This document shows, piece by piece, positions 52,514 to 61,075 of a stretch of DNA of 64,000 nucleotides; positions within the stretch are counted from its first letter, which is position 1, and the number at the start of each line of letters is the position of its first letter. The notes under the pieces are model-generated. The model had not been told where the DNA came from, did not search any database, and saw nothing but the letters and a program-made list of their open reading frames with translations. The translations under genes were made by a program, and so were the position numbers. Origin of the DNA: a virus. The stretch spans positions 32,001-96,000 of IMG/VR virus record IMGVR_UViG_3300040759_000032. One strand, given 5' to 3'.

Positions 52514-52672
52514 TGACCGTCACAGTCGCCGAGGAAGGCCTCCGCCACTGGGCGCTCATCAGCGGAACCGTCTGCTGCGGCCCGGGCCATGCCGACGCGC
52601 TGGAAGCGGCACGGCACGCGTGGATGCTCACGAGGGCGATCGCCCGGCGCGAGGCGAAGGCGGCGGTGTGAC

Positions 52673-53929
52673 GTGCCGGCTACGTGGCTCGCCACCAAGG
52701 ACGTCCCGCTCGCCGACCTCGAGCGCTTCCCCGGCAACGCCCGGCGCGGCAACGTCGGAGAAATCCGCAAGAGCATCAAGCGCCACGGCCAGTACCGGTC
52801 CCTCGTCGTCCGCTCCCATGACGGCAAGCTGACGATCCTCGCGGGCAACCACACCCGCGACGCGCTCGAGGCCGAGGGCTTCGACGGCGCACGGTGCGAG
52901 ATCATCGAGTGCGACGACGCCGAGGCGCGCAGGATCAACGCGGCAGACAACCGCCTAGGCGAGCTGCCCGACCCTGAGACGGGCGAGCGGTACGACGGCG
53001 ACGCCCTCGCCGAACTGCTCGGCTCATTCGAGGGCGACTTCGACGGCACCGGGTGGACCGAGGAAGACCTCGCCGACCTGCTGGCCGAAGGCGAGCCTGA
53101 CCCCGTGGGGGGGGGCGGTGATCCGGACGACTCGCCGGAGCCTCCGGCGGAACCGGTGTCCGCTCACGGGGACCTGTACCTACTGGGCCCGCACCGGCTC
53201 CTCTGCGGCGACGCGACGAACCCCGACGACCTGAAGCGGGTCACGGACGGGCACGGCGAGATCGGGATCGTCTACACCGACCCGCCGTACGGTATCAAGG
53301 CGGTCCCGAAGGATGGCGGCGCGAGCCGGGGCGGCCGGTTCCGAGGTAAAAGCGGGACCGGCGACTTCATCTCACCGAACATCTACTCGCCGGTTGCCGG
53401 CGATGACTCCACCGAAACCGTGAGGGACTCATTCGGCCTGCTGACGGCAGAGTACCCGCACGCTGCCCACGTCTGGTGGGGCGGCAACCACTTCGCTGCC
53501 TCGGCCGGGCTCCCTGACGCAACCTGCTGGCTGGTCTGGGACAAAGACAACACCGGCGACTTCGCCGACGCCGAACTCGCGTGGACGAGCCACCATGGCC
53601 CGGTCCGCCTGCTGCGGCACATGTGGAACGGCATGCTCCGCGCCTCCGAGCGGGGCAAACGAGTGCACCCGACACAGAAGCCCGTGGCGCTCGCAGAGTG
53701 GGCCTTCACTGTAATGGATCCCAAGAATGAGCGGAAGACCGTCCTCGACGTGTTCGGCGGTTCGGGCTCCACCCTGATCGCAGCCCACCGCACCAAGCGC
53801 ACGGCGGCGGTGGTCGAGATGGAGCCCGCGTACGTGGATGTGATCGCCCGCCGCTACGAAGAGGCCACGCAGGACATCCCGCTCCGGGTGCTCCCTGACG
53901 GCGGCACCGTCCCCGTCTCCTTCACCTGA
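52673..53929 (+). CDS. ParB-like domain fused to N4/N6 DNA methyltransferase
   Basis: PGNARRG...ILAGNHT; HRLLCGDAT; YTDPPYG; HPTQKPV; LDVFGGSGSTLIAA. Confidence 0.92.
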   Translation: MPATWLATKDVPLADLERFPGNARRGNVGEIRKSIKRHGQYRSLVVRSHDGKLTILAGNHTRDALEAEGFDGARCEIIECDDAEARRINAADNRLGELPDPETGERYDGDALAELLGSFEGDFDGTGWTEEDLADLLAEGEPDPVGGGGDPDDSPEPPAEPVSAHGDLYLLGPHRLLCGDATNPDDLKRVTDGHGEIGIVYTDPPYGIKAVPKDGGASRGGRFRGKSGTGDFISPNIYSPVAGDDSTETVRDSFGLLTAEYPHAAHVWWGGNHFAASAGLPDATCWLVWDKDNTGDFADAELAWTSHHGPVRLLRHMWNGMLRASERGKRVHPTQKPVALAEWAFTVMDPKNERKTVLDVFGGSGSTLIAAHRTKRTAAVVEMEPAYVDVIARRYEEATQDIPLRVLPDGGTVPVSFT

Positions 53930-54008
53930 ACCCGTTCCGCCAACGCATGGAATGGCCAACGCCCCAGGGTGGTGAGCGCCCACGCCCCCCCGCCGCACCT
54001 CCGCCGCG

Positions 54009-54491
54009 ATGGAGAAGGACCAGCAGGCTTACGACCTGTTCCGCCGGGGCCTGTCGTACCGGCAGATCGCCTCGCAGCTGGACTGGAAGTCGCAGAAGTC
54101 CGCGTTCGAGGCCGTGCGCCGAGCCGCCCGCGACAACGCCGCCGACCCCCTCGAGCAGGCGGAGGCACGGCAGGCGTTCTACGACCGGCTGCAGGACTAC
54201 CGGCGGGCCGCCCAGCGGGTCCTGTCGACGCGGCACTACGTCACGACCCAGACGGGGAACCTCGCGCACGGACCGGACGGGAGCCCGCTCCTCGACGACG
54301 ACCCGGTGCTGCGGGCGCTGGACCGGCTCGTGAAGATCGACGACATGGAACTGCGGCTGCGGGACCTGTACCCGGCGGCGAAGTCCCGCGTCGAGGTGAT
54401 CACTGAGGACGTGGTCGACGCGGAGATGGCGATGCTGGCCAGGCAGGTGGCGGAGAACGATGCCCGCGCCGCTGATTCTGGCGCCGCCTGA
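54009..54491 (+). CDS. terS: Terminase small subunit (HTH)
   Basis: GLSYRQIASQLDW; directly upstream of and overlapping TerL. Confidence 0.7.
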   Translation: MEKDQQAYDLFRRGLSYRQIASQLDWKSQKSAFEAVRRAARDNAADPLEQAEARQAFYDRLQDYRRAAQRVLSTRHYVTTQTGNLAHGPDGSPLLDDDPVLRALDRLVKIDDMELRLRDLYPAAKSRVEVITEDVVDAEMAMLARQVAENDARAADSGAA

Positions 54492-57400
54492 GAAGATCCG
54501 GCGTCTGGCCGAGCTCCGGGCGAGGCTCCGCGAGCAGGAGGCCGAGCGGCGCAAGACCGAGGGCCCGCGGTGGGCGACGCCCGGCGAGCTCGCCAGGGCG
54601 ATCGACCCGGCGACGGTGCAGACGCCCGCGCTTGACCTGATCGACGAGGCGCTCGTGTGGGCGTACTCGACGCCCGGCGCGCGGCTCGCGGTGTCCATCG
54701 CACCTCAGGAAGGCAAGTCACAGAGAGTAACCAGAGTTGGCTCTCTGTGGGCGCTATCGCAGGATCCCGAGACGCGGATCGGCATCGCCTCCTACGCTCA
54801 GTCCCTCGCCGAGGGGTTCGGCCGCGACATCAGGAACATGATCGCGTCCAACAACGGCGACGAGGGCACGCTGGACATCGGGCTGCGCATCGCGGGCGAC
54901 TACGGGTCGGCGCGGCGCTGGCAGCTCGACGGGCACCGCGGCGGCGTTGTCTGCGTCGGAATCGGCTCCGGTCTAACCGGCCGCCCGCTGGACTGCATAG
55001 CGGGCGATTCCGGTATTATTACCCCTGATGGGGTGGTGTGCGCCGCCGACCTGGTAAAGGCGGAAACGCTCCCTCTCGTCCTGTCGTGGAACCACGGCAG
55101 CAGGCGTGCGGAGTGGCGGCAGGTCGAGGCCACGCGCACGATCCCCGGAAGAGAGATCGTTGAAGTCCGCACCGCCGCAGGCCGCGTCATCCGCTGCACT
55201 CCCGACCACCGCGTCTACGTCGCCGGACGCGGCTACGTTCCCGCCGCTGACCTGCGCGCCGGAGACCGTCTCGTCACTTCCGGCGCGAGTCCCGATCCTG
55301 TGCGGCGGATGCGGGACGGTCTTCACGAGGTTCCGGTCGGCCCTGAGGAACAACAAGCCGGGCACGCCCCTCTACTGCACGAAGGCGTGCCAGAACGCGT
55401 CGGCCAAGGTGGCGCTCACCTGCGAAGGCTGCGGCGGCGGCTACACGCGGATGCGATGCGAAGTGGACAAGGCCGCCAGGAACGGGTTCACGCGCTCGTT
55501 CTGCTCCAAGGCGTGCTTCCTGGGAACCCAGAGCGCCGAGTTCGCCGCGAAGAGGCCGTGCCTGACGTGCGGCAAGCCGAGGCCTCGCAAAGAAGACCGC
55601 TCCGACACGCGGTTCTGCTCCGACGAGTGCCGCCGGCAGTTCTTCACGGCGTCCGCGGACTGCGCCCACTGCGGCGCCTCATTCGAGATGCCGCGCTACG
55701 AGCTGGCGAAGAGGCGCAGGCGCGGCGGGAACGTGTACTGCTCCCAGCCGTGCGCCCGCGCCGGCATCGCGGTGACGCTCACGAAGGCCACGTGCCAGGG
55801 ATGCGGCGCGAAGATGCCGCAGCCGTGGAACGGCCGACGGTACTGCTCGGACGAGTGCCGCGCAGCGCACGGGGCGGTAACCCGGACGCTCCCGGACCAG
55901 GTGTGCACGTCGTGCGGCGTGGTCTTCCGGCCGAAGACCGGCCGGACGGGATACTGCTCCCGCGAGTGCGCCGACTCCGCGCACTCCGCCCGGATGACCG
56001 GCCCCGGGAACTCCCACTTCGTGGACGGCACCAGCTACGCGGACTGGTTCCGCAAGATGCGCCCGCTGATCATCGAGCGGGACGGCGGAGTCTGCGCCGC
56101 CTGCAAGACCTGCCCGCCGCCGACGAGGTACAAGCGCAACGGGGTCCCGGCCGAGAGAAGCTCGCTGCTCGTGCACCACATCAACGAGACGCCGGCGGAC
56201 AACAGGCCGCAGAACCTGATAACGCTCTGCAAGACCTGCCACATGATCCACCACAAGTCGAAGGCGACGCCGTTTCCGTGGTTCGCCGCATACGCGGCGA
56301 GCGCCACACGGTGTATGACCTCCAAGTGGAAGGCAACCGCAACTTCTTTGCAGACCAGGTACTCGTCCACAACTGCCTGATCATCGATGACCCGTTCGCG
56401 GACGCCGAGCAGGCGGGAAGCGCCTACTACCGCGACCGCGTGTGGGACTGGTGGAGGTCAGTCGGGGCGCCCCGCCTCGCTCCCGCCGCCCCCGCGATCC
56501 TGATCAACACCCGCTGGCACGAGGACGACCTCACAGGCCGGATGCTCGCCGCCGAGGACGGCCACCGCTGGCGCGCGATCAACATCCCGGCCCTCGCCGA
56601 CCACAAGCCGGAGCTCGGCCAGTCCGACCCGCTCGGCCGGGAGCCCGGCGAATGGCTGACCTCCGCCCGGGGCCGCACGCCGGCCCAGTGGGAGCAGATC
56701 CGGATCCAGGCCGGGTCGCGTGTCTTCGCCAGCCTGTACCAGGGCAGGCCGTCCCCGGACCAGGGGAACGTCTGGCAGCGGCAGTGGTGGCGCCGCTACC
56801 AGGAGCCGCTGTGGTCGCAGCACCCCACGACGCCGGAAGCGTGGCTCGTCCACGACGCCGACGAGGTCCTCATCTCGGTTGACTGCGCGTTCAAGGACAC
56901 GAAATCATCCGACTTCGTCGTCATGCAGACGTGGGCGCGGCGCGGCGCGATGGCGTACCTCGTCGACCAGGTACGCAAGCGCCTCTCGTTCACCGACACC
57001 GTGACGGCGCTCCTCGCGCTGATCGCCAAGTGGCCGCAGGCGTCCCGGAAGCTCATCGAGGACAAGGCCAACGGCACCGCGGTCATAAGCTCGCTGAAGT
57101 CCAAGGTCCCCGGCCTGGTGCCCGTCAACCCGACGGACTCCAAGTACGGGCGGGCGACAGCGGTCGCGCCGTTCATCGAGTCGGGGAACGTGCTGCTGCC
57201 CGCGGCGGGCGTGGGCCTGTTCGACCCCTCGGAGCTGATCGAGGAAGCGGCCGGGTTCCCGAACGCAGCGCACGACGACCAGGTCGACACCACGTCGCAG
57301 GCTCTCGCGGAGATGTTCTTGGACGGGAACGGCGCCGCAGCTTGGATCGCGTGGGCGAAGCGCAAGGCCGAGGCCGTCGCGACGGGGCACGTTGCCGAGT

Positions 57401-57531
57401 CGCAGTCGGCCCCGAAAGCCCCCGCCGTGCCGGAGGCCGCCCCGGACCCCGAGCCCCCTCCCGCCCCCCTCGATCCTGCTGCGGCGCTGAGGGCGGCCAG
57501 GACCGCGATGTTCCGCCAGCAGGGCCGCTAG
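54460..57531 (+). CDS. terL: Terminase large subunit containing a 460-aa intein
   Basis: APQEGKS; GLTGRPLD|CLIIDDP (Walker B); TRWHEDD; ISVDCAFK; IEDKANG; HDDQVD. Confidence 0.95.
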   Translation: MPAPLILAPPEKIRRLAELRARLREQEAERRKTEGPRWATPGELARAIDPATVQTPALDLIDEALVWAYSTPGARLAVSIAPQEGKSQRVTRVGSLWALSQDPETRIGIASYAQSLAEGFGRDIRNMIASNNGDEGTLDIGLRIAGDYGSARRWQLDGHRGGVVCVGIGSGLTGRPLDCIAGDSGIITPDGVVCAADLVKAETLPLVLSWNHGSRRAEWRQVEATRTIPGREIVEVRTAAGRVIRCTPDHRVYVAGRGYVPAADLRAGDRLVTSGASPDPVRRMRDGLHEVPVGPEEQQAGHAPLLHEGVPERVGQGGAHLRRLRRRLHADAMRSGQGRQERVHALVLLQGVLPGNPERRVRREEAVPDVRQAEASQRRPLRHAVLLRRVPPAVLHGVRGLRPLRRLIRDAALRAGEEAQARRERVLLPAVRPRRHRGDAHEGHVPGMRREDAAAVERPTVLLGRVPRSARGGNPDAPGPGVHVVRRGLPAEDRPDGILLPRVRRLRALRPDDRPRELPLRGRHQLRGLVPQDAPADHRAGRRSLRRLQDLPAADEVQAQRGPGREKLAARAPHQRDAGGQQAAEPDNALQDLPHDPPQVEGDAVSVVRRIRGERHTVYDLQVEGNRNFFADQVLVHNCLIIDDPFADAEQAGSAYYRDRVWDWWRSVGAPRLAPAAPAILINTRWHEDDLTGRMLAAEDGHRWRAINIPALADHKPELGQSDPLGREPGEWLTSARGRTPAQWEQIRIQAGSRVFASLYQGRPSPDQGNVWQRQWWRRYQEPLWSQHPTTPEAWLVHDADEVLISVDCAFKDTKSSDFVVMQTWARRGAMAYLVDQVRKRLSFTDTVTALLALIAKWPQASRKLIEDKANGTAVISSLKSKVPGLVPVNPTDSKYGRATAVAPFIESGNVLLPAAGVGLFDPSELIEEAAGFPNAAHDDQVDTTSQALAEMFLDGNGAAAWIAWAKRKAEAVATGHVAESQSAPKAPAVPEAAPDPEPPPAPLDPAAALRAARTAMFRQQGR
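54994..56373 (+). mobile_element. Intein (Hint N and C parts, in frame)
   Basis: Block A CIAGDSGIITPDG; block B CTPDHRV; blocks F/G VYDLQVEGNRNFFADQVLVHN followed by Cys+1. Confidence 0.93.
55106..56380 (+). CDS. Zn-finger-repeat HNH endonuclease encoded in the +1 frame inside the intein (start uncertain)
   Basis: Six CxxCG...[FY]C[ST]xxC repeats; RDGGVCAAC...VHHINE...NLITLCKTCH; GC3-rich codons in this frame. Confidence 0.88.
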   Translation: MRSGGRSRPRARSPEERSLKSAPPQAASSAALPTTASTSPDAATFPPLTCAPETVSSLPARVPILCGGCGTVFTRFRSALRNNKPGTPLYCTKACQNASAKVALTCEGCGGGYTRMRCEVDKAARNGFTRSFCSKACFLGTQSAEFAAKRPCLTCGKPRPRKEDRSDTRFCSDECRRQFFTASADCAHCGASFEMPRYELAKRRRRGGNVYCSQPCARAGIAVTLTKATCQGCGAKMPQPWNGRRYCSDECRAAHGAVTRTLPDQVCTSCGVVFRPKTGRTGYCSRECADSAHSARMTGPGNSHFVDGTSYADWFRKMRPLIIERDGGVCAACKTCPPPTRYKRNGVPAERSSLLVHHINETPADNRPQNLITLCKTCHMIHHKSKATPFPWFAAYAASATRCMTSKWKATATSLQTRYSSTTA

Positions 57532-57546
57532 CTGACAGGAGTCCGC

Positions 57547-57807
57547 GTGGCCGACGAGCAGCCGCCCGTTTTCGAGACGGACGGCCAGTGGCCGTTTTCC
57601 GGGACCGTGAAGGTGAACGGGCACCCGCTCGCGTCCGTCTCTTCCTGGTCCGTCTCCGCCGCCTCCGACGGAGTCCCGGTCGTCACGCTCGGCCTCGTCG
57701 ACCAGGGGGCGCTGAGGCTGCTCCTCGGGCCCGGCGCCCGGGTGCAGGTTTCCGACGCGACCCGTGACGCCCTCATCTCCCTCGGCTGGACCCCTCCGGC
57801 AGGCTGA
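57547..57807 (+). CDS. Hypothetical protein
   Basis: SD AGGAG; between TerL and portal. Confidence 0.6.
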   Translation: MADEQPPVFETDGQWPFSGTVKVNGHPLASVSSWSVSAASDGVPVVTLGLVDQGALRLLLGPGARVQVSDATRDALISLGWTPPAG

Positions 57808-57862
57808 CGGCCGCGAACGGCACCAAGAACGGCCGCCGAGCGGCGCGCGGGGAGGGCACCGC

Positions 57863-60800
57863 ATGAGCGTCCGATCCCGAGCCGCCGTCCTCGACGCCCC
57901 GGCCGTCCAGGTCGCAAAGGTGTTCGGTCCGGGGGTCCCGCCGGCGATCCGGGCGGCCGAGGCCGAGGCGCAGATGACGCCGACGTCCCCGTTCGGCCCC
58001 GGCACGCCGATCGGCCCGTACGACGGGTACTCGCGGCAGCCGCGCAGCCAGAACTTCGTGACCGGGGTCAACATCTCGACCCGGCCGCGGACCCACGAGC
58101 GCGTCAGCTTCGAGACGCTCGTGGGATTGATAAACGCCTACGACATCGCCCAGATAGCCATCTGGCATCGCATCGACTCCATTAGGTCGCTCGACTGGCG
58201 CCTCATTCCGGCCGCGCATTTCCAGGGCGACGCGACTGACGCCATCCGCATCGGGACTAAGGCGCTCAAGAAGCCGGACCGGATCAACTCGTTCAGCTCA
58301 TGGCTGGCGAAATGGCTATTCGACGTCCTCGCCTATGACGCGGGAGCGCTTTACCGGCTGCGGAACCGGGCCGGGCGCTGTATTGGGCTTCTCCCGGTTG
58401 ACGGCACGACGATCGCGCCGATGCTCGATTACTGGGGCAATCCGCCTGGCGCGATGGCCGCCCCCGGCGAGGAACTGCCCGAGGCGTTCGTCCAGTACGT
58501 CAACGGGCTGCCGTGGAACTGGCTGACGCTCGCCGATCTGGTCTACCAGCCGTTCCGGCCGCGCACCAACTCCCCGTACGGCCATGCGCCGCTTGAGTCG
58601 ATAATCCTCAACGCGAACACCGATATTCGCTTCCAGCTCTTTTTCCTTCAGCGTTTTACTGAAGGAAACATTCCGGAGGCGTTCGCCGCCGCCCCGGAAA
58701 CATGGTCCCCCGATCAGATAGAGCAGTTCCAGGAATACTGGGACGGCTTCATGTACGGCGACCAGTCGCGGAAGCACCAGATTCGGTGGATGCCCGGCGG
58801 CTCGAAATTCGCGTGGTCCAACGAGAAGGACTTCAGCGACACCTTCTCGCTGTTCCTGATGCGGAAGACGCTCGCCGCGTATCACACAGTCCCGGCCGAC
58901 GTCGGATTCACCGAAAACGTGAACAAATCGTCCGGCGAAAGCCAGGCTGACGTGCAGCACCGCGTCGGCGAGCTCCCTCTCGACGCCTATGTCGAGGCGA
59001 TCCTGACGGACTTCCTCCAAGACGACCTGGGCCTGCCGGTCGAGTTCGAGTTCGACAAGGGCGAGGAGCAGGACGACCGCCTCGCCGTCGCGCAAGCGCA
59101 CGAGATCTACATCCGCAACGCCGTGATCGGGGCGTCCGAAGTCCGCGAGGAGGTCTTCGGCCTCCCCGAGCCGGACGGCCAGGTCGTGCCCCGCGGGTTC
59201 TTCACCGAGCGTTCCGGGCTCATCCCGCTCAACTCGGTGCTCGCCGTCGCAGGGCCGATCGACCCCGCCACGGCCGCCCCGGAACCGGGGTCGCCCCTGC
59301 CGCACATGGTGTTCGGCGGCGTCGAGGGCGTGCTCCCCAACCCGCCGATCAAGGTCCCGAGCCTCGCCGAGCAGGAGTACGGGCCGTCGGCGATGCCGCC
59401 CGCCCCGCCGCCGCAGCCGAAGATGACCGACGCCGACGCGACCCCGGAACTGACTGCGGGCGCGGTCGCCAAGGAAGGCGAGGGCGCGGGCGGGAACGTC
59501 ACGGCGGGCATCACCGCGGCGACGGGCCTGTACTCCTACGACCTCGACGGCAGGGGCGGCGACGAGGACGAGGATGACGGCCCGGTCGGCCAGGCGGTGA
59601 TCGCGAAGGAGATGCAGGCGTTCCGCCGGTACTCAAGGGCGCGCAGGCGCTCGGGAGAGTGGCGGGACTTCGAGTTCCGGGCGGTCGCCAAGGTCGCCGG
59701 CCACAACCTGAACGACTCCGGCCGCCTCGCTGTCCGCAAGGACGCCGGGCAGGTGGCTGTCGCAGGGCTGGCTGTTCTCGCCGCGGACACAGGCCGCGTG
59801 CTGATGATCCAGCGGGCGCTTGACGACAGCGACCCTGCGGCCGGTACCTGGGAAGTGCCAGGCGGCCATCTGGAAGGCGCGGAGACGCCCCTCCATGGTG
59901 CGTGGCGCGAGTGGTCAGAGGAGTGCGGCGTAGCACCCCCGCCGGGCACTCAGACAGGCTCGTGGGCATCTCCGGACGGGATCTACCAGGGCATCGTGTG
60001 GACGGTCGACAGCGAGGCTCTCGTCCCGGTTCGCTCGGACACGCAGATCAGCAACCCCGATGACCCCGACGGCGACTCAATCGAGGCAATCGCCTGGTGG
60101 GACCCGGAGACGCTGCCGGGCAACCCGGCGGTGCGCCCCGAGCTGCTCGCGAACATCGATGACGTGATGGCCGCCCTCGGCTACGGCGTGACGGACGACG
60201 CCGAGGCGGAAGAGGTGGCCAAGGCGGCCGGTGGTTCAGGCCCAAAAGGGCCCGCCTGGCACGGGTGGACGCTCGACCGGAAGACGGCCGCGCACTGGGC
60301 CCCGAGGGTCCGCGACTCGGTTAAGGCGGCGGTCCCGAAGGCGAAGGCCCGCGACATGGGCCGTGACTACCTCGCTGATCACCCCGAGCAGGACGGGTCC
60401 GCCCCGGGCAAGCGGGACCGGAACAAGGCCGCCGCGGCGTGGGTCCTCGCCTGGCTGGCCAGCCACGGCATCACCCTCGTCCCGTCGTCGACGGCTGAGG
60501 CGATCGCGGTCGACGGGTACGCGATAGGCGCGGTCTCCGCTCAGCATCAGGTCACCGGGCAGCCGCCGGGGAAGACCGCTCCGGGCGGCCGGGACTCCGC
60601 CTTCGACCGGGTCGGGGAGGCCGGGCTGGCCGCCGAGCTCGCCCTGCTGCTGCGCGGAGGGAACGGCGCCGAGGCCGCCGCCGAGATCGTCGCTGAGGCG
60701 ATCGCCGGCGGGTACGCGAACGCGCTGGCGATCATCCTCGCCGGGACGGACGCGGACTGGGCGGACAGCCAGGACACCCTCGACGAGCTCGGGGACCTGC

Positions 60801-61075
60801 TGTCAGACGCGCTCGCCGACGAGGACACCGCCGTGACGCTCGTCGGGACGCAGATCAACATCTACACCGGGCTGTCAGCGCACGACTACTACATGCAGAA
60901 CAGCGTGACCCTGGTGAACTGGGTCACCGACCCGTCGAAGTCCGGCGTCTGCCCGGTCTGCGTGGCGAACGAGGCGGCAAGCCCGCAGACGAACGGGCAG
61001 CCCTGGCCCAGCGGGGACGTCTCGCCGCCAGCGCACCCGAACTGCCGGTGCCAGTTGCTTCCGGCGTGGCTCTAG
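57863..61075 (+). CDS. Portal protein fused to NUDIX hydrolase and MuF-like head morphogenesis domain
   Basis: Portal-like N-terminus (LLPVDGTTI, SPYGHAPLE); Nudix box PGGHLEGAETPLHGAWREWSEECG; VCPVC...PPAHPNCRC. Confidence 0.85.
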   Translation: MSVRSRAAVLDAPAVQVAKVFGPGVPPAIRAAEAEAQMTPTSPFGPGTPIGPYDGYSRQPRSQNFVTGVNISTRPRTHERVSFETLVGLINAYDIAQIAIWHRIDSIRSLDWRLIPAAHFQGDATDAIRIGTKALKKPDRINSFSSWLAKWLFDVLAYDAGALYRLRNRAGRCIGLLPVDGTTIAPMLDYWGNPPGAMAAPGEELPEAFVQYVNGLPWNWLTLADLVYQPFRPRTNSPYGHAPLESIILNANTDIRFQLFFLQRFTEGNIPEAFAAAPETWSPDQIEQFQEYWDGFMYGDQSRKHQIRWMPGGSKFAWSNEKDFSDTFSLFLMRKTLAAYHTVPADVGFTENVNKSSGESQADVQHRVGELPLDAYVEAILTDFLQDDLGLPVEFEFDKGEEQDDRLAVAQAHEIYIRNAVIGASEVREEVFGLPEPDGQVVPRGFFTERSGLIPLNSVLAVAGPIDPATAAPEPGSPLPHMVFGGVEGVLPNPPIKVPSLAEQEYGPSAMPPAPPPQPKMTDADATPELTAGAVAKEGEGAGGNVTAGITAATGLYSYDLDGRGGDEDEDDGPVGQAVIAKEMQAFRRYSRARRRSGEWRDFEFRAVAKVAGHNLNDSGRLAVRKDAGQVAVAGLAVLAADTGRVLMIQRALDDSDPAAGTWEVPGGHLEGAETPLHGAWREWSEECGVAPPPGTQTGSWASPDGIYQGIVWTVDSEALVPVRSDTQISNPDDPDGDSIEAIAWWDPETLPGNPAVRPELLANIDDVMAALGYGVTDDAEAEEVAKAAGGSGPKGPAWHGWTLDRKTAAHWAPRVRDSVKAAVPKAKARDMGRDYLADHPEQDGSAPGKRDRNKAAAAWVLAWLASHGITLVPSSTAEAIAVDGYAIGAVSAQHQVTGQPPGKTAPGGRDSAFDRVGEAGLAAELALLLRGGNGAEAAAEIVAEAIAGGYANALAIILAGTDADWADSQDTLDELGDLLSDALADEDTAVTLVGTQINIYTGLSAHDYYMQNSVTLVNWVTDPSKSGVCPVCVANEAASPQTNGQPWPSGDVSPPAHPNCRCQLLPAWL

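What the first reader, a model, noticed from the sequence alone, without database searches (positions are those of the whole stretch)
54994..56380. Terminase intein whose homing endonuclease is overprinted in a different reading frame (about 1.1 kb dual-coding)
Seen: TerL is one uninterrupted frame with a complete intein (Cys1 at 54994, TxxH, terminal HN at 56368-56373, Cys+1) inserted just before Walker B. The ~330 aa between the two Hint halves are Arg/Leu/Val/Pro-rich with no recognisable domain. The same DNA in the +1 frame encodes a coherent six-Zn-finger HNH endonuclease with normal codon bias, and that ORF runs through the intein C-terminal block to stop at 56380 in the extein. Known: intein endonucleases (LAGLIDADG or HNH) are normally in-frame domains of the intein. 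Inference: a free-standing HNH gene invaded a mini-intein out of frame and is tolerated because the shadow-frame peptide is spliced out, so nuclease expression is uncoupled from TerL. There is no canonical start at the point where HNH-like sequence begins (~55277, CTT CCG; GGAG at 55261), so expression needs GTG 55106, ATG 55451, a non-canonical start or a +1 frameshift. Caveat: shadow frames are often open in high-GC DNA.
Basis: partly seen in the sequence, partly recalled or inferred. Interest (0 to 1): 0.88.

Follow-up and report, generated by a model that had tools for sequence, protein, structure and literature searches.

The report
Terminase intein with out-of-frame HNH gene
This phage's DNA-packaging gene carries a self-splicing protein insert (an intein), and a complete DNA-cutting "homing" enzyme gene is written inside it one base out of step; the double coding is real and kept by selection in many phages, but this kind of layout has already been reported.

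Summary
TerL (54460-57531) is one open frame holding a 460-aa class-1 intein (54994-56373: Cys1, TPDH, HN, Cys+1) at the Walker B motif. Between the Hint halves the coding signal lies in the +1 frame (GC3 0.948), which encodes six zinc ribbons and an HNH nuclease and ends at TGA 56378-56380 in the extein.

It is not an assembly error. Contigs of three other studies show no indels at either junction, and an independent viral contig aligns without gaps.

In 57 of 57 distinct related inteins (GC 36-71%) the HNH lies in the +1 frame. The intein frame has 0 stops where 419 are expected. dN/dS is 0.02-0.37 in the HNH frame and 0.97-3.7 in the intein frame.

Of the 80 nearest TerL loci, 74 have an empty site, as expected of a mobile element.

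The layout is in print for brucellaphages (2015), whose nuclease is homologous. The general kind is described in a 2025 actinophage preprint. This scan has also noted it before on other DNA. Verdict: a real new member of a known kind.

The parts
54460..57531 (+). TerL precursor ORF (1023 aa, includes stop). One uninterrupted frame: N-extein, intein, C-extein.
   Evidence: ORF. (Terminase_6C 52.9 bits, Intein_splicing 51.1 bits).
54460..54993 (+). N-extein (178 aa), ends ...GRPLD.
   Evidence: Intein-less relatives read GRPLD|ALVIDD across this point.
54994..56373 (+). Intein in the TerL frame: 460 aa, class 1, from Cys1 to His-Asn.
   Evidence: Alignment A2 has C1, T69, H72, H459 and N460 invariant in 30 of 30 sequences.
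54994..55287 (+). Hint N-terminal half (intein residues 1-98) with block A and block B (TPDH at 55198-55209).
   Evidence: AF2 pLDDT 92-97 over residues 1-90. Foldseek matches mini-inteins at E 2.3e-7 and weaker.
55288..56262 (+). Intein-frame 'shadow' linker of about 325 aa. It is Arg/Ala/Leu/Pro-rich, predicted disordered, not conserved, and free of stops.
   Evidence: pLDDT 29-50 apart from one helix at residues 214-248. Apparent dN/dS 0.97-3.7. Composition. Stop avoidance.
56263..56373 (+). Hint C-terminal half (blocks F and G, ...VYDLQVEGNRNFFADQVLVHN).
   Evidence: pLDDT 81-96. Conserved in A2.
56374..57531 (+). C-extein. It starts with Cys+1 (56374-56376) and the Walker B motif LIIDD.
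55160..56380 (+). HNH endonuclease ORF in the +1 frame as proposed here (TTG start, 406 codons, TGA stop at 56378-56380). The longest possible ORF starts at GTG 55106.
   Evidence: ORF 55106..56380. (family start position -118, which is 55160 here). (81 homologs, best E 1e-185).
55147..55155 (+). Purine-rich Shine-Dalgarno-like stretch GGAAGAGAG, ending 4 nt before TTG 55160 (4 of 5 matches to GGAGG). The match was read by eye from the sequence, not computed.
   Evidence: Sequence. In the family, 16 of 35 chosen starts have at least 4 of 5 matches, against 189 of 1140 random positions.
55301..55969 (+). Array of six zinc ribbons (CxxC...[FY]CSxxC, MYM/FCS-like) of the HNH-frame protein. Presumed DNA-recognition module. 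The number of units varies among relatives.
   Evidence: Invariant Cys pairs in A1. Weak PDB profile match to a MYM-type zinc finger, 2das, E 0.01. AF2 pLDDT mostly 85-96.
56000..56341 (+). HNH catalytic domain (model residues 244-357). C275/C278, H302-H303, N311, N315, C320, H324, H327 and H328 are invariant in A1; C323 is conserved in at least 90% of its sequences.
   Evidence: invariant columns. (EcoKMcrA Z 8.1, ScoMcrA Z 7.4, Cap5 Z 7.0). (Foldseek probability 0.99 for ScoMcrA and Cap5).
55160..55290 (+). Double-coding overlap 1: end of Hint-N (TerL frame) with the N-terminal leader of the HNH ORF (+1 frame).
   Evidence: The HNH frame is open upstream to at least -127 in 55 of 57 loci. 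WIN and L003 differ at only 9 of 131 positions.
56266..56380 (+). Double-coding overlap 2: Hint-C blocks F and G (TerL frame) with the C-terminal tail of the HNH ORF (...PFPWFAAYAAS...SSTTA*). The stop is supplied by the extein codons TGC CTG ATC.
   Evidence: Tail conserved in 25 of 25 sequences of A1. The stop begins at +5 after the intein in 35 of 57 loci. WIN and L003 differ at 5 of 108 positions.

Best explanation
This is a mobile class-1 intein inserted at the Walker B motif of the large terminase of a 132-kb high-GC phage. Its homing endonuclease is not a domain of the intein. It is a separate gene written in the +1 frame between, and partly over, the two Hint halves.

Shown: both frames are open. 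The +1 frame carries the coding signal and encodes six zinc ribbons plus an HNH nuclease. The TerL frame across the same DNA encodes a non-conserved peptide, predicted to be disordered, that is kept free of stop codons.

Inferred mechanism, in four steps. (1) Ribosomes translating TerL read straight through. The roughly 325-aa linker is tolerated because the Hint halves fold together and splice the whole 460 aa out, restoring ...GRPLD-CLIIDD.... (2) The nuclease is made by internal initiation at TTG 55160, about 40 codons before the end of Hint-N, behind a purine-rich SD-like stretch. It terminates at TGA 56378-56380, a stop supplied by the extein's Cys-Leu-Ile codons. (3) The free nuclease cuts intein-less terL alleles during co-infection, and repair copies the intein in. 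(4) Because the nuclease has its own start, its level need not follow that of TerL.

The arrangement is inherited from one ancestor shared with brucellaphage, Gordonia phage Clown and many uncultured phage inteins. Selection maintains it on both frames.
For: Anatomy.

Not an error. No indels appear in contigs of three other studies at either junction. The alignment to L003 is gapless over 1980 nt.

Family. In 57 of 57 distinct inteins the HNH is +1 relative to Hint-N and Hint-C, which share a frame. There are 0 stops in the intein frame, at GC 0.356-0.706. In the HNH-only segment 0 stops are seen against 419.3 expected under synonymous permutation. The third-frame control gives 499 against 458.2.

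Selection. dN/dS in the HNH frame is 0.02-0.37 and in the intein frame 0.97-3.68, in all 31 pairs of 72-97% identity.

Folds. The HNH-frame model has mean pLDDT 84.1 and its C-terminal domain matches HNH nucleases at Z 8.1-7.0. The intein-frame model is confident only in residues 1-98 and 423-460. Those parts match mini-inteins at E 2e-7 and weaker.

Start. 55 of 57 loci keep the HNH frame open to at least -127. 45 of 57 have a start codon in -136..-112, and 35 of 57 have one at exactly -127 or -118. In 11 loci the upstream stop falls at -165..-128. SD-like matches are enriched, 16 of 35 against 189 of 1140. In the window the Val-Glu codons GTT GAA create the TTG. From my own knowledge, and not measured here, both codons would be rare choices in a genome of this GC3.

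Stop. The HNH ORF ends 5-11 nt into the extein in 48 of 57 loci.

Mobility. 74 of the 80 nearest TerL loci have an empty site, 1 has the intein, and 5 could not be determined. Between the window and L003, dS is 0.128 inside the HNH gene and 0.42-0.57 in the exteins.

Precedent. The record of Brucella phage Pr annotates gp07 (TerL, 'intein present') with gp08 (HNH) nested in another frame. Passages of PMC4422536 state the same.
Against: No experiment of any kind supports splicing, nuclease activity or the proposed start.

The window's own SD-like stretch is weak, with no GGAG or GAGG. GTG 55106 is also available.

Start codons also recur at other positions. GTG occurs at -100 in 18 of 57 loci and ATG at -184 in 13 of 57. 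Some of that recurrence must come from conserved intein-frame codons, and the same could be true at -127 and -118. 12 of 57 loci have no start in -136..-112.

The 57 loci descend from one ancestor, so '57 of 57 in +1' is one event that has been maintained, not 57 independent events.

For the window alone the open TerL frame is not statistically unusual.

The HNH frame is broken by a stop in 3 of 57 loci (L021, L029, L034). Some copies have therefore lost the nuclease, and the window's copy could be inactive for reasons that sequence does not show.

Pfam's HNH model scores below its cut-off on the window protein. The best structural Z of 8.1 is in the range the tool calls middling.

The low dS inside the element could reflect constraint from double coding and not recent transfer.

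The RNA run that was laid covers only 56362-56500, so it says nothing about expression.
Confidence: 0.85

Rival explanations
1. Assembly or sequencing artefact. The HNH is really an in-frame intein domain, and two compensating indels near 55280 and 56260 were introduced by the assembler.
For: The Hint-N to HNH and HNH to Hint-C transitions are abrupt, and the homologous parts of the two frames abut. A pair of indels would produce exactly that picture.
Against: Contigs from other studies cover both junctions with 0 gaps, and table 4 lists no inserted or deleted letters. L003 from another metagenome is gapless over 1980 nt. All 57 distinct relatives, including isolate genomes (Gordonia phage Clown, Brucella phages), have the same +1 offset. 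The TerL frame is kept open in low-GC members, where chance would give 12-18 stops each.
Confidence: 0.01
2. Programmed ribosomal frameshifting. The nuclease is made by a +1 shift out of the TerL frame near 55280. The product would be a fusion to N-extein plus Hint-N or, with a second shift back near 56265, an in-frame intein domain.
For: The frame offset is strictly conserved. 12 of 57 loci lack a start codon in the usual place.
Against: If shifting were the main route, the TerL frame would not need to stay open through the HNH gene, yet it does (0 stops against 419 expected). The HNH frame would also not need to stay open for at least 127 nt upstream of the junction, yet it does in 55 of 57 loci. 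I saw no shared slippery motif at the junction in the sequences printed. That was by eye, and no formal motif search was run. Two loci with a stop close upstream (L002, L019) have a start codon with GGAG or AGGAG directly at the junction.
Confidence: 0.04
3. Decaying relic. The HNH ORF in this phage is intact by recent descent only, is no longer expressed or active, and the intein persists by vertical inheritance.
For: The window's SD-like stretch is weaker than that of its relative L003, GGAAG against GGGAG. 3 of 57 relatives already have stops in the HNH frame. Only one close relative carries the intein.
Against: dN/dS between the window and L003 in the HNH frame is 0.32-0.33, with dS 0.126-0.128. 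All catalytic and zinc-binding residues invariant in the family are present. The ORF runs its full length, with start and stop at the family positions.
Confidence: 0.1

Closest known systems
Brucellaphage (Tb, Pr and related) TerL intein with a nested out-of-frame HNH gene. GenBank NC_019447 gp07 and gp08. Discussed in Virol J 2015;12:66 (PMC4422536, passages read).
   Same: Homologous nuclease: tblastn 33% identity over 64% of the query, E 2e-18 and 5e-24 locally. Same host gene, and the intein also ends ...LVHN|C before IIDD. Same +1 offset, and the TerL frame is open. [quoted passage not shown]
   Different: The Brucella element is shorter (332-aa intein, fewer zinc ribbons). Its HNH ORF starts at the Hint-N/HNH junction (GTG at +20 behind AGGAG, upstream stop at -1) and ends 10 nt before the intein end. 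The window's ORF overlaps both Hint halves. The host phylum and GC content differ. The authors proposed a role with terminase as well as homing.
Non-canonical actinobacteriophage inteins with the homing endonuclease in another frame or strand. Gosselin, Arsenault and Gogarten, bioRxiv 10.1101/2025.01.02.630785 (abstract, sections 8 and 15, and passages read; supplements not seen).
   Same: Same concept and same proposed origin: a free-standing HEN invaded an intein between the splicing blocks. Many of their cases are in TerL. The in-frame middle has no recognisable fold, while the alternative frame folds as a nuclease. Gordonia phage Clown, a member of the window's family, appears in their data set as the largest class-1 intein at 385 aa.
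   Different: Their same-strand out-of-frame case is an endonuclease VII-like enzyme in 'frame 3', whose catalytic match lies at residues 1-67. Here the nuclease is a zinc-ribbon HNH in the +1 frame with its catalytic domain at the C-terminus. Whether they class Clown's intein as non-canonical I could not see, because the supplementary tables are closed. Their survey covers PhagesDB only.
ShiLan 'hidden' out-of-frame HNH in a mycobacteriophage DNA methylase. Arsenault et al., Genes 2025 (PMC11855218; abstract and section 4 read).
   Same: An HNH gene out of frame inside a host ORF that stays open. It has an alternative start codon a little way into the insert, and a stop at the very end of the insert.
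   Different: No splicing domain was detected there, so the insert is thought to remain in the host protein. Here the insert sits within a complete intein. The authors favour leaderless initiation, whereas here an SD-like stretch precedes the family start.
Canonical inteins with in-frame HNH or LAGLIDADG endonuclease domains, for example the mycobacteriophage TerL inteins of Kelley et al., mBio 2016 (PMC5050341, passages read).
   Same: Class-1 Hint domain, insertion in a TerL ATPase motif (their site TerL1-e is in Walker B), and sporadic distribution.
   Different: In those inteins the endonuclease is part of the intein polypeptide. Here it is a separate translation product.

Membership tests
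Class 1 intein (Hint splicing domain) | N-terminal Cys or Ser nucleophile, block B TxxH, C-terminal His-Asn, and Cys/Ser/Thr at +1 | tested here: met
   C1 at 54994-54996, T69-P-D-H72 at 55198-55209, H459-N460 at 56368-56373, C+1 at 56374-56376. These residues are invariant in 30 of 30 sequences of A2.
Class 1 intein (Hint splicing domain) | Match to the curated family model and the Hint fold | tested here: met
   Pfam Intein_splicing 51.1 bits against a cut-off of 35.8. The AF2 model matches mini-inteins: NrdJ-1 at E 2.3e-7; Ssp DnaB and Mtu RecA at TMt 0.54-0.65, rmsd 1.5-2.1.
Class 1 intein (Hint splicing domain) | Protein splicing activity | not testable with these tools
   Inferred only: TerL is essential and the frame is kept open across the family.
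HNH (His-Me finger) endonuclease | Match to the curated HNH models | tested here: inconclusive
   The window protein scores PF01844 at E 0.0041, 17.7 bits, below the 21.4 cut-off. Several homologs carry precomputed PF13392 or PF01844 hits.
HNH (His-Me finger) endonuclease | Beta-beta-alpha-metal fold with conserved His, Asn, His and CxxC zinc ligands | tested here: met
   C275, C278, H302, H303, N311, N315, C320, H324, H327 and H328 are invariant in 25 of 25 sequences; C323 is conserved in at least 90%. Model residues 244-357 align to EcoKMcrA at Z 8.1 (rmsd 4.1, 90 aligned), ScoMcrA at Z 7.4 and Cap5 at Z 7.0. The Z values are middling by the tool's own note, but nearly all the top rows are HNH domains.
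HNH (His-Me finger) endonuclease | Site-specific DNA cleavage | not testable with these tools
Brucellaphage-type TerL intein with a +1-frame zinc-ribbon HNH | Nuclease homologous to gp08 of phages Tb and Pr, nested in a TerL intein, with Hint halves in one frame and the HNH in +1 | tested here: met
   (L002 and L070 are among the 57-locus family).
Brucellaphage-type TerL intein with a +1-frame zinc-ribbon HNH | Intein frame kept free of stops across the nuclease gene | tested here: met
   0 stops in 57 of 57 loci against 419.3 expected. For the window alone the expectation is only 0.13.
[quoted passage not shown] 2025) | Endonuclease VII-like catalytic domain encoded in 'frame 3' relative to the intein | tested here: not met
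   The nuclease here is an HNH of the McrA/Cap5-like type, located at the C-terminus, in the +1 frame. Their match was to 1E7D over residues 1-67. The layout is the same kind, but this is not that family.
Homing (mobile) genetic element | Sporadic presence among closely related host genes, with precise empty sites | tested here: met
   Of the 80 nearest TerL loci, 74 read straight through (for example GRPLD-ALVIDD), 1 has the intein (the same contig as L003) and 5 could not be determined.
Homing (mobile) genetic element | Endonuclease cleaves the empty allele and the element is copied in | not testable with these tools
   Indirect hint only: dS is 0.128 inside the element against 0.42-0.57 in the exteins between the window and L003.

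The most novel reading that the evidence does not exclude
The window belongs to one old, widespread family of inteins that are obligately double-coding. I saw it in phages or prophages of Actinomycetota, Alphaproteobacteria, a cyanophage, a Ralstonia phage, a Sulfobacillus MAG and Methanothrix MAG contigs, over GC 36-71%.

In this family the nuclease gene has become a self-contained cistron built into the intein. Its ribosome-binding stretch and start codon are written into the codons of the Hint-N strand before block B. Its C-terminal helices are written over blocks F and G. Its stop codon is supplied by the target gene's Walker B codons. In high-GC members a -10-like TANNNT inside block A may give it its own transcript.

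If so, this is a third stable way of coupling a nuclease to a splicing element, beside in-frame domains and intron ORFs, and not a transient accident. As far as my two literature searches show, the family-wide anatomy, meaning the conserved start, the overlaps and the borrowed stop, is not in print.
Probability: 0.45. Interest if true: 0.55.

Novelty: new member of a known kind. Interest (0 to 1): 0.42.

Why it matters
Inteins are textbook examples of elements whose nuclease is an in-frame domain. This case shows the alternative: a separate nuclease cistron overprinted on a spliced-out linker.

The family behind it gives unusually clean evidence of long-term selection on two frames at once. 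No stops occur where about 419 are expected, and dN/dS points in opposite directions in the two frames.

There are practical consequences. Gene callers either report only TerL or report two 'overlapping' genes without explanation. Intein surveys that look for in-frame endonuclease domains will class these elements as large inteins with no recognisable nuclease.

It also offers a natural system for asking how much a Hint domain tolerates in its insertion loop (about 325 disordered residues here), and for studying internal initiation inside a heavily translated late gene.

It does not open a new category. The layout has been noted since the brucellaphage genomes were published and was formalised in 2025.

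Tried and rejected
Megablast of the TerL gene against the phage collection found nothing.

The profile search of the HNH family against PDB sequences gave only weak zinc-finger matches, the best being Aart at E 0.0031 and a MYM zinc finger at E 0.01. It gave no HNH entry.

The whole-model Foldseek search of the HNH-frame model gave no match at E <= 0.001. The model is a string of small domains with pTM 0.36. The VIA second look was needed to see the HNH domain.

The sigma-70 consensus scan over 54700-56600 found no promoter. It found one terminator-like site on the minus strand, no more than the shuffles give.

Rfam found no RNA family, and hence no group I or II intron, in 54000-58000 at E <= 1.

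The search for longer proteins holding the HNH in frame returned one weak hit (P0082, E 4.5e-6). It has no terminase or intein domain. By the tool's own warning, this is weak evidence of absence.

The metatranscriptome run X23 yielded one 154-nt contig over 56362-56500 only. It says nothing on expression of either frame. Parts of the stretch without contig cover in X3, X4 and X5 mean nothing.

In the comparison of extein and HNH identity, the HNH core is more conserved than the exteins in many pairs (for example L004 and L078: exteins 45%, HNH 79%). I did not build trees or run topology tests, so I do not claim horizontal transfer from that comparison.

I considered that the 43 Mycobacterium phage hits might be the preprint's out-of-frame cases. 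One search shows they are weak matches (E 6e-5 to 4e-4) to free-standing genes annotated as HNH endonuclease or hypothetical protein, not TerL inteins.

That position is not Met in the relatives, and a start there would remove the first two zinc ribbons.


Full report
WHAT IS THERE. The window is bases 32001-96000 of a 132,427-base IMG/VR virus record rated complete. The region is a packaging module. It holds a DNA methylase (52589-53929), a small ORF (54009-54491, no family found), TerL, a small ORF, and a portal-NUDIX fusion (57764-61075).

TerL is one ORF, 54460-57531, of 1023 aa. It matches Pfam Terminase_6C and Intein_splicing above their cut-offs.

The intein runs from Cys1 (54994) to His-Asn (56368-56373). 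Cys+1 and LIIDD follow, so it sits in the Walker B motif. Block B is T-P-D-H at 55198-55209.

A second ORF, 55106-56380, lies one base to the right. It encodes six CxxC...[FY]CSxxC zinc ribbons followed by a CxxC...HH...N...N...CxxCH..HH module.

WHICH FRAME CODES. Between the Hint halves (55295-56266) the GC content by codon position in the +1 frame is 0.534/0.596/0.948. That is the signature of a real gene in this phage. The TerL frame there has the 0.948 at its first codon position.

The third frame has 9 stops.

An AlphaFold model of the +1 product, built with 25 homologs, has mean pLDDT 84.1. Its residues 244-357 align to HNH nucleases: EcoKMcrA at Z 8.1, ScoMcrA at Z 7.4 and Cap5 at Z 7.0.

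A model of the intein-frame product, built with 30 homologs, is confident only at residues 1-98 (pLDDT 92-97 over 1-90) and 423-460 (81-96). It falls to 29-50 in between, apart from one helix. The confident parts match mini-inteins at E 2.3e-7 and weaker.

IS IT AN ERROR? No.

Contigs from runs of three other studies were laid on 54900-56500. No inserted or deleted letters were listed. X4 record 11 covers 55230-55842 with 0 differences. X3 record 7 covers 55984-56500 with 0. X4 record 14 covers 56144-56356 with 0. X5 record 20 covers 56107-56341 with 1 substitution.

An independent viral contig, L003, aligns to the window without a gap over 1980 nt around the intein.

IS IT MORE THAN CHANCE? 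For the window alone, not clearly.

The TerL frame reads positions 3-1-2 of the HNH codons. A stop there needs a T at an HNH third position, which is rare at GC3 0.95. Permuting the gene's own synonymous codons leaves the TerL frame open in 85-87% of trials. Using the codon usage of the exteins and the portal gene leaves it open in 2.35%.

The family decides the matter. A search of 5.8 billion proteins found 81 relatives of the +1 product. DNA scans returned 75 viral loci and 10 genomic loci.

In every locus where Hint-N, HNH and Hint-C could all be placed (70 loci, 57 distinct intein sequences), the two Hint halves share one frame. The HNH is in +1, and the intein frame has no stop. GC runs from 0.356 to 0.706.

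In the HNH-only segments, synonymous permutation predicts 419.3 stops in the intein frame and 0 are seen. The third frame serves as the control and shows 499 against 458.2 expected.

These loci share an ancestor, so the constant +1 offset is one event. Keeping both frames open through that much divergence is selection.

WHAT IS SELECTED. In all 31 pairs of 72-97% nucleotide identity, dN/dS in the HNH frame is 0.02-0.37. The same columns read in the intein frame give 0.97-3.68. The nuclease protein is therefore conserved, and the linker peptide is only kept free of stops.

Three of the 57 loci have a stop in the HNH frame (L021, L029, L034), but none has one in the intein frame. That is the order of decay expected for an intein and its nuclease.

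HOW THE NUCLEASE IS MADE (inference). But the +1 frame is open well upstream, into Hint-N.

Measured from the end of Hint-N, 55 of 57 loci are open to at least -127 nt. In 11 loci the upstream stop falls at -165 to -128. ATG occurs at -127 in 19 loci. ATG, GTG or TTG occurs at -118 in 22 loci. 35 loci have one or the other, and 45 have some start in -136..-112.

SD-like matches of at least 4 of 5 to GGAGG precede 16 of those 35 starts, against 189 of 1140 random positions.

The window has TTG at 55160-55162, which is position -118, behind GGAAGAGAG (55147-55155). The TTG is made by the intein-frame codons GTT GAA. From my own knowledge, and not measured here, both would be rare choices at this GC3.

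The two loci with a stop close upstream (Brucella phage Pr, and L019) instead have a start with AGGAG or GGAG at the junction.

Caveats apply. Recurrent start codons also appear at -100 and -184. 12 loci lack a start in the usual zone. GTG 55106 remains possible here.

The alternative of ribosomal frameshifting explains neither the open intein frame nor the open upstream +1 frame. I give it 0.04.

WHERE IT STOPS. The +1 ORF runs on through blocks F and G and ends at TGA 56378-56380, inside the extein codons TGC CTG ATC. In 35 of 57 loci the stop begins at the same +5 position, in 10 at +8 and in 3 at +11. In 4 it falls before the intein end.

The tail that overlaps Hint-C (...PFPWF...SSTTA) is conserved in all 25 aligned proteins and is modelled as helices at pLDDT 83-86. 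Conservation there must owe much to the Hint blocks in the other frame.

MOBILITY. Of the 80 viral loci with the most similar C-extein, 74 read straight through the site (for example GRPLD-ALVIDD). One has the intein and is the same contig as L003. Five could not be determined.

Between the window and L003, dS is 0.42-0.57 in the exteins and 0.50 in the first 55 intein codons. It is 0.128 in the HNH gene (profile). That fits a more recent common origin of the element than of its host genes. Constraint from double coding is not excluded.

The HNH core is often more similar between loci than their exteins are. I did not build trees.

WHAT IS KNOWN. The GenBank record of Brucella phage Pr annotates TerL ('intein present') with a nested 'putative HNH endonuclease' in another frame. 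That nuclease is a homolog of the window's, at 33% identity and E 2e-18 to 5e-24.

I read the abstract, sections 8 and 15, and passages of the bioRxiv preprint 10.1101/2025.01.02.630785. It describes actinophage inteins whose endonuclease is encoded in another frame or on the other strand. It proposes invasion by free-standing nucleases. It lists Clown's TerL intein, a member of this family, as the largest class-1 intein.

Their same-strand case is a different nuclease, endonuclease VII-like, in 'frame 3'. I could not open their supplementary tables, so I do not know how they class Clown.

Genes 2025;16:178 describes an out-of-frame HNH in a methylase insert that has no splicing domain.

A 2026 preprint on a cyanobacterial dnaX intein with an out-of-frame endonuclease appeared in a search listing only.

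Kelley et al. 2016 place one mycobacteriophage TerL intein site in Walker B (passages).

Earlier notes of this scan report the same layout on other DNA several times. I treated them as leads only.

VERDICT. It is a new member of a known kind, belonging to the brucellaphage-type zinc-ribbon-HNH family and not to the preprint's endonuclease VII group.

My two literature searches did not find the family-wide anatomy in print. By that I mean the start built into Hint-N, the overlaps with both Hint halves, the stop borrowed from Walker B, and stop avoidance across a GC range of 36-71%.

Interest 0.42.

Noticed in passing
window 55014-55019; L003 and L001 at the same offset (+20 from Cys1); L082, L015, L021, L008, L011, L017 and L010 at +38: An AT-rich, -10-like hexamer lies inside intein block A of high-GC members. 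It is TATTAT in the window and TATACT in L003, both built from rare A/T-ending codons. A group of seven related loci has TAGAAT or TAAAAT. It could be an internal promoter for the nuclease. However, the sigma-70 consensus scan found nothing, and the seven loci are close relatives of one another.
   Followed up: partly
window 54994-55113 against 55114-56373 (compared with L003): The first 60 nt of the intein differ from L003 at 19 positions. That is more than anywhere in the exteins, which show 6-16 per 60 nt. The HNH catalytic part (55894-56313) differs at only 0-4 per 60 nt. Synonymous divergence in the HNH gene is 3-4 times lower than in the exteins. Possible causes are recent exchange of part of the element, or constraint at synonymous sites. 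This is unresolved.
   Followed up: partly
L093 (IMG/VR contig), TerL site: One intein-less TerL relative already has Cys at the +1 position (GRPLD-CMVVDD), whereas most empty alleles have Ala there. It could be a site of precise intein loss, or a ready-made target.
   Followed up: no
L083 and L084 (Methanothrix/Methanosaeta MAG contigs), L085 (Sulfobacillus MAG): Members of the same intein-HNH family lie on contigs binned to archaeal methanogen MAGs and to a Firmicute MAG. Between L083 and L084 the HNH-frame dN/dS is 0.02. Whether these are archaeal viruses or binning errors was not examined.
   Followed up: no
window 57764-61075: The ORF after TerL is an 1103-aa fusion of a phage portal domain (residues 139-462, just under Pfam's cut-off) with a NUDIX hydrolase domain (residues 669-786).
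   Followed up: no
L126 (IMG/VR contig of 133,834 bases): A TerL relative with 68% C-extein identity gave a Hint-C match, but no Hint-N or HNH match, and its junction could not be read. It may carry a different or degraded intein at or near the site.
   Followed up: no
G000:C1:39876-40349 (- strand), outside the finding: A second weak match to the zinc-ribbon part of the nuclease (E 1.8e-5 and 2.2e-4) lies elsewhere in the same phage record. It may be another zinc-ribbon protein.
   Followed up: no
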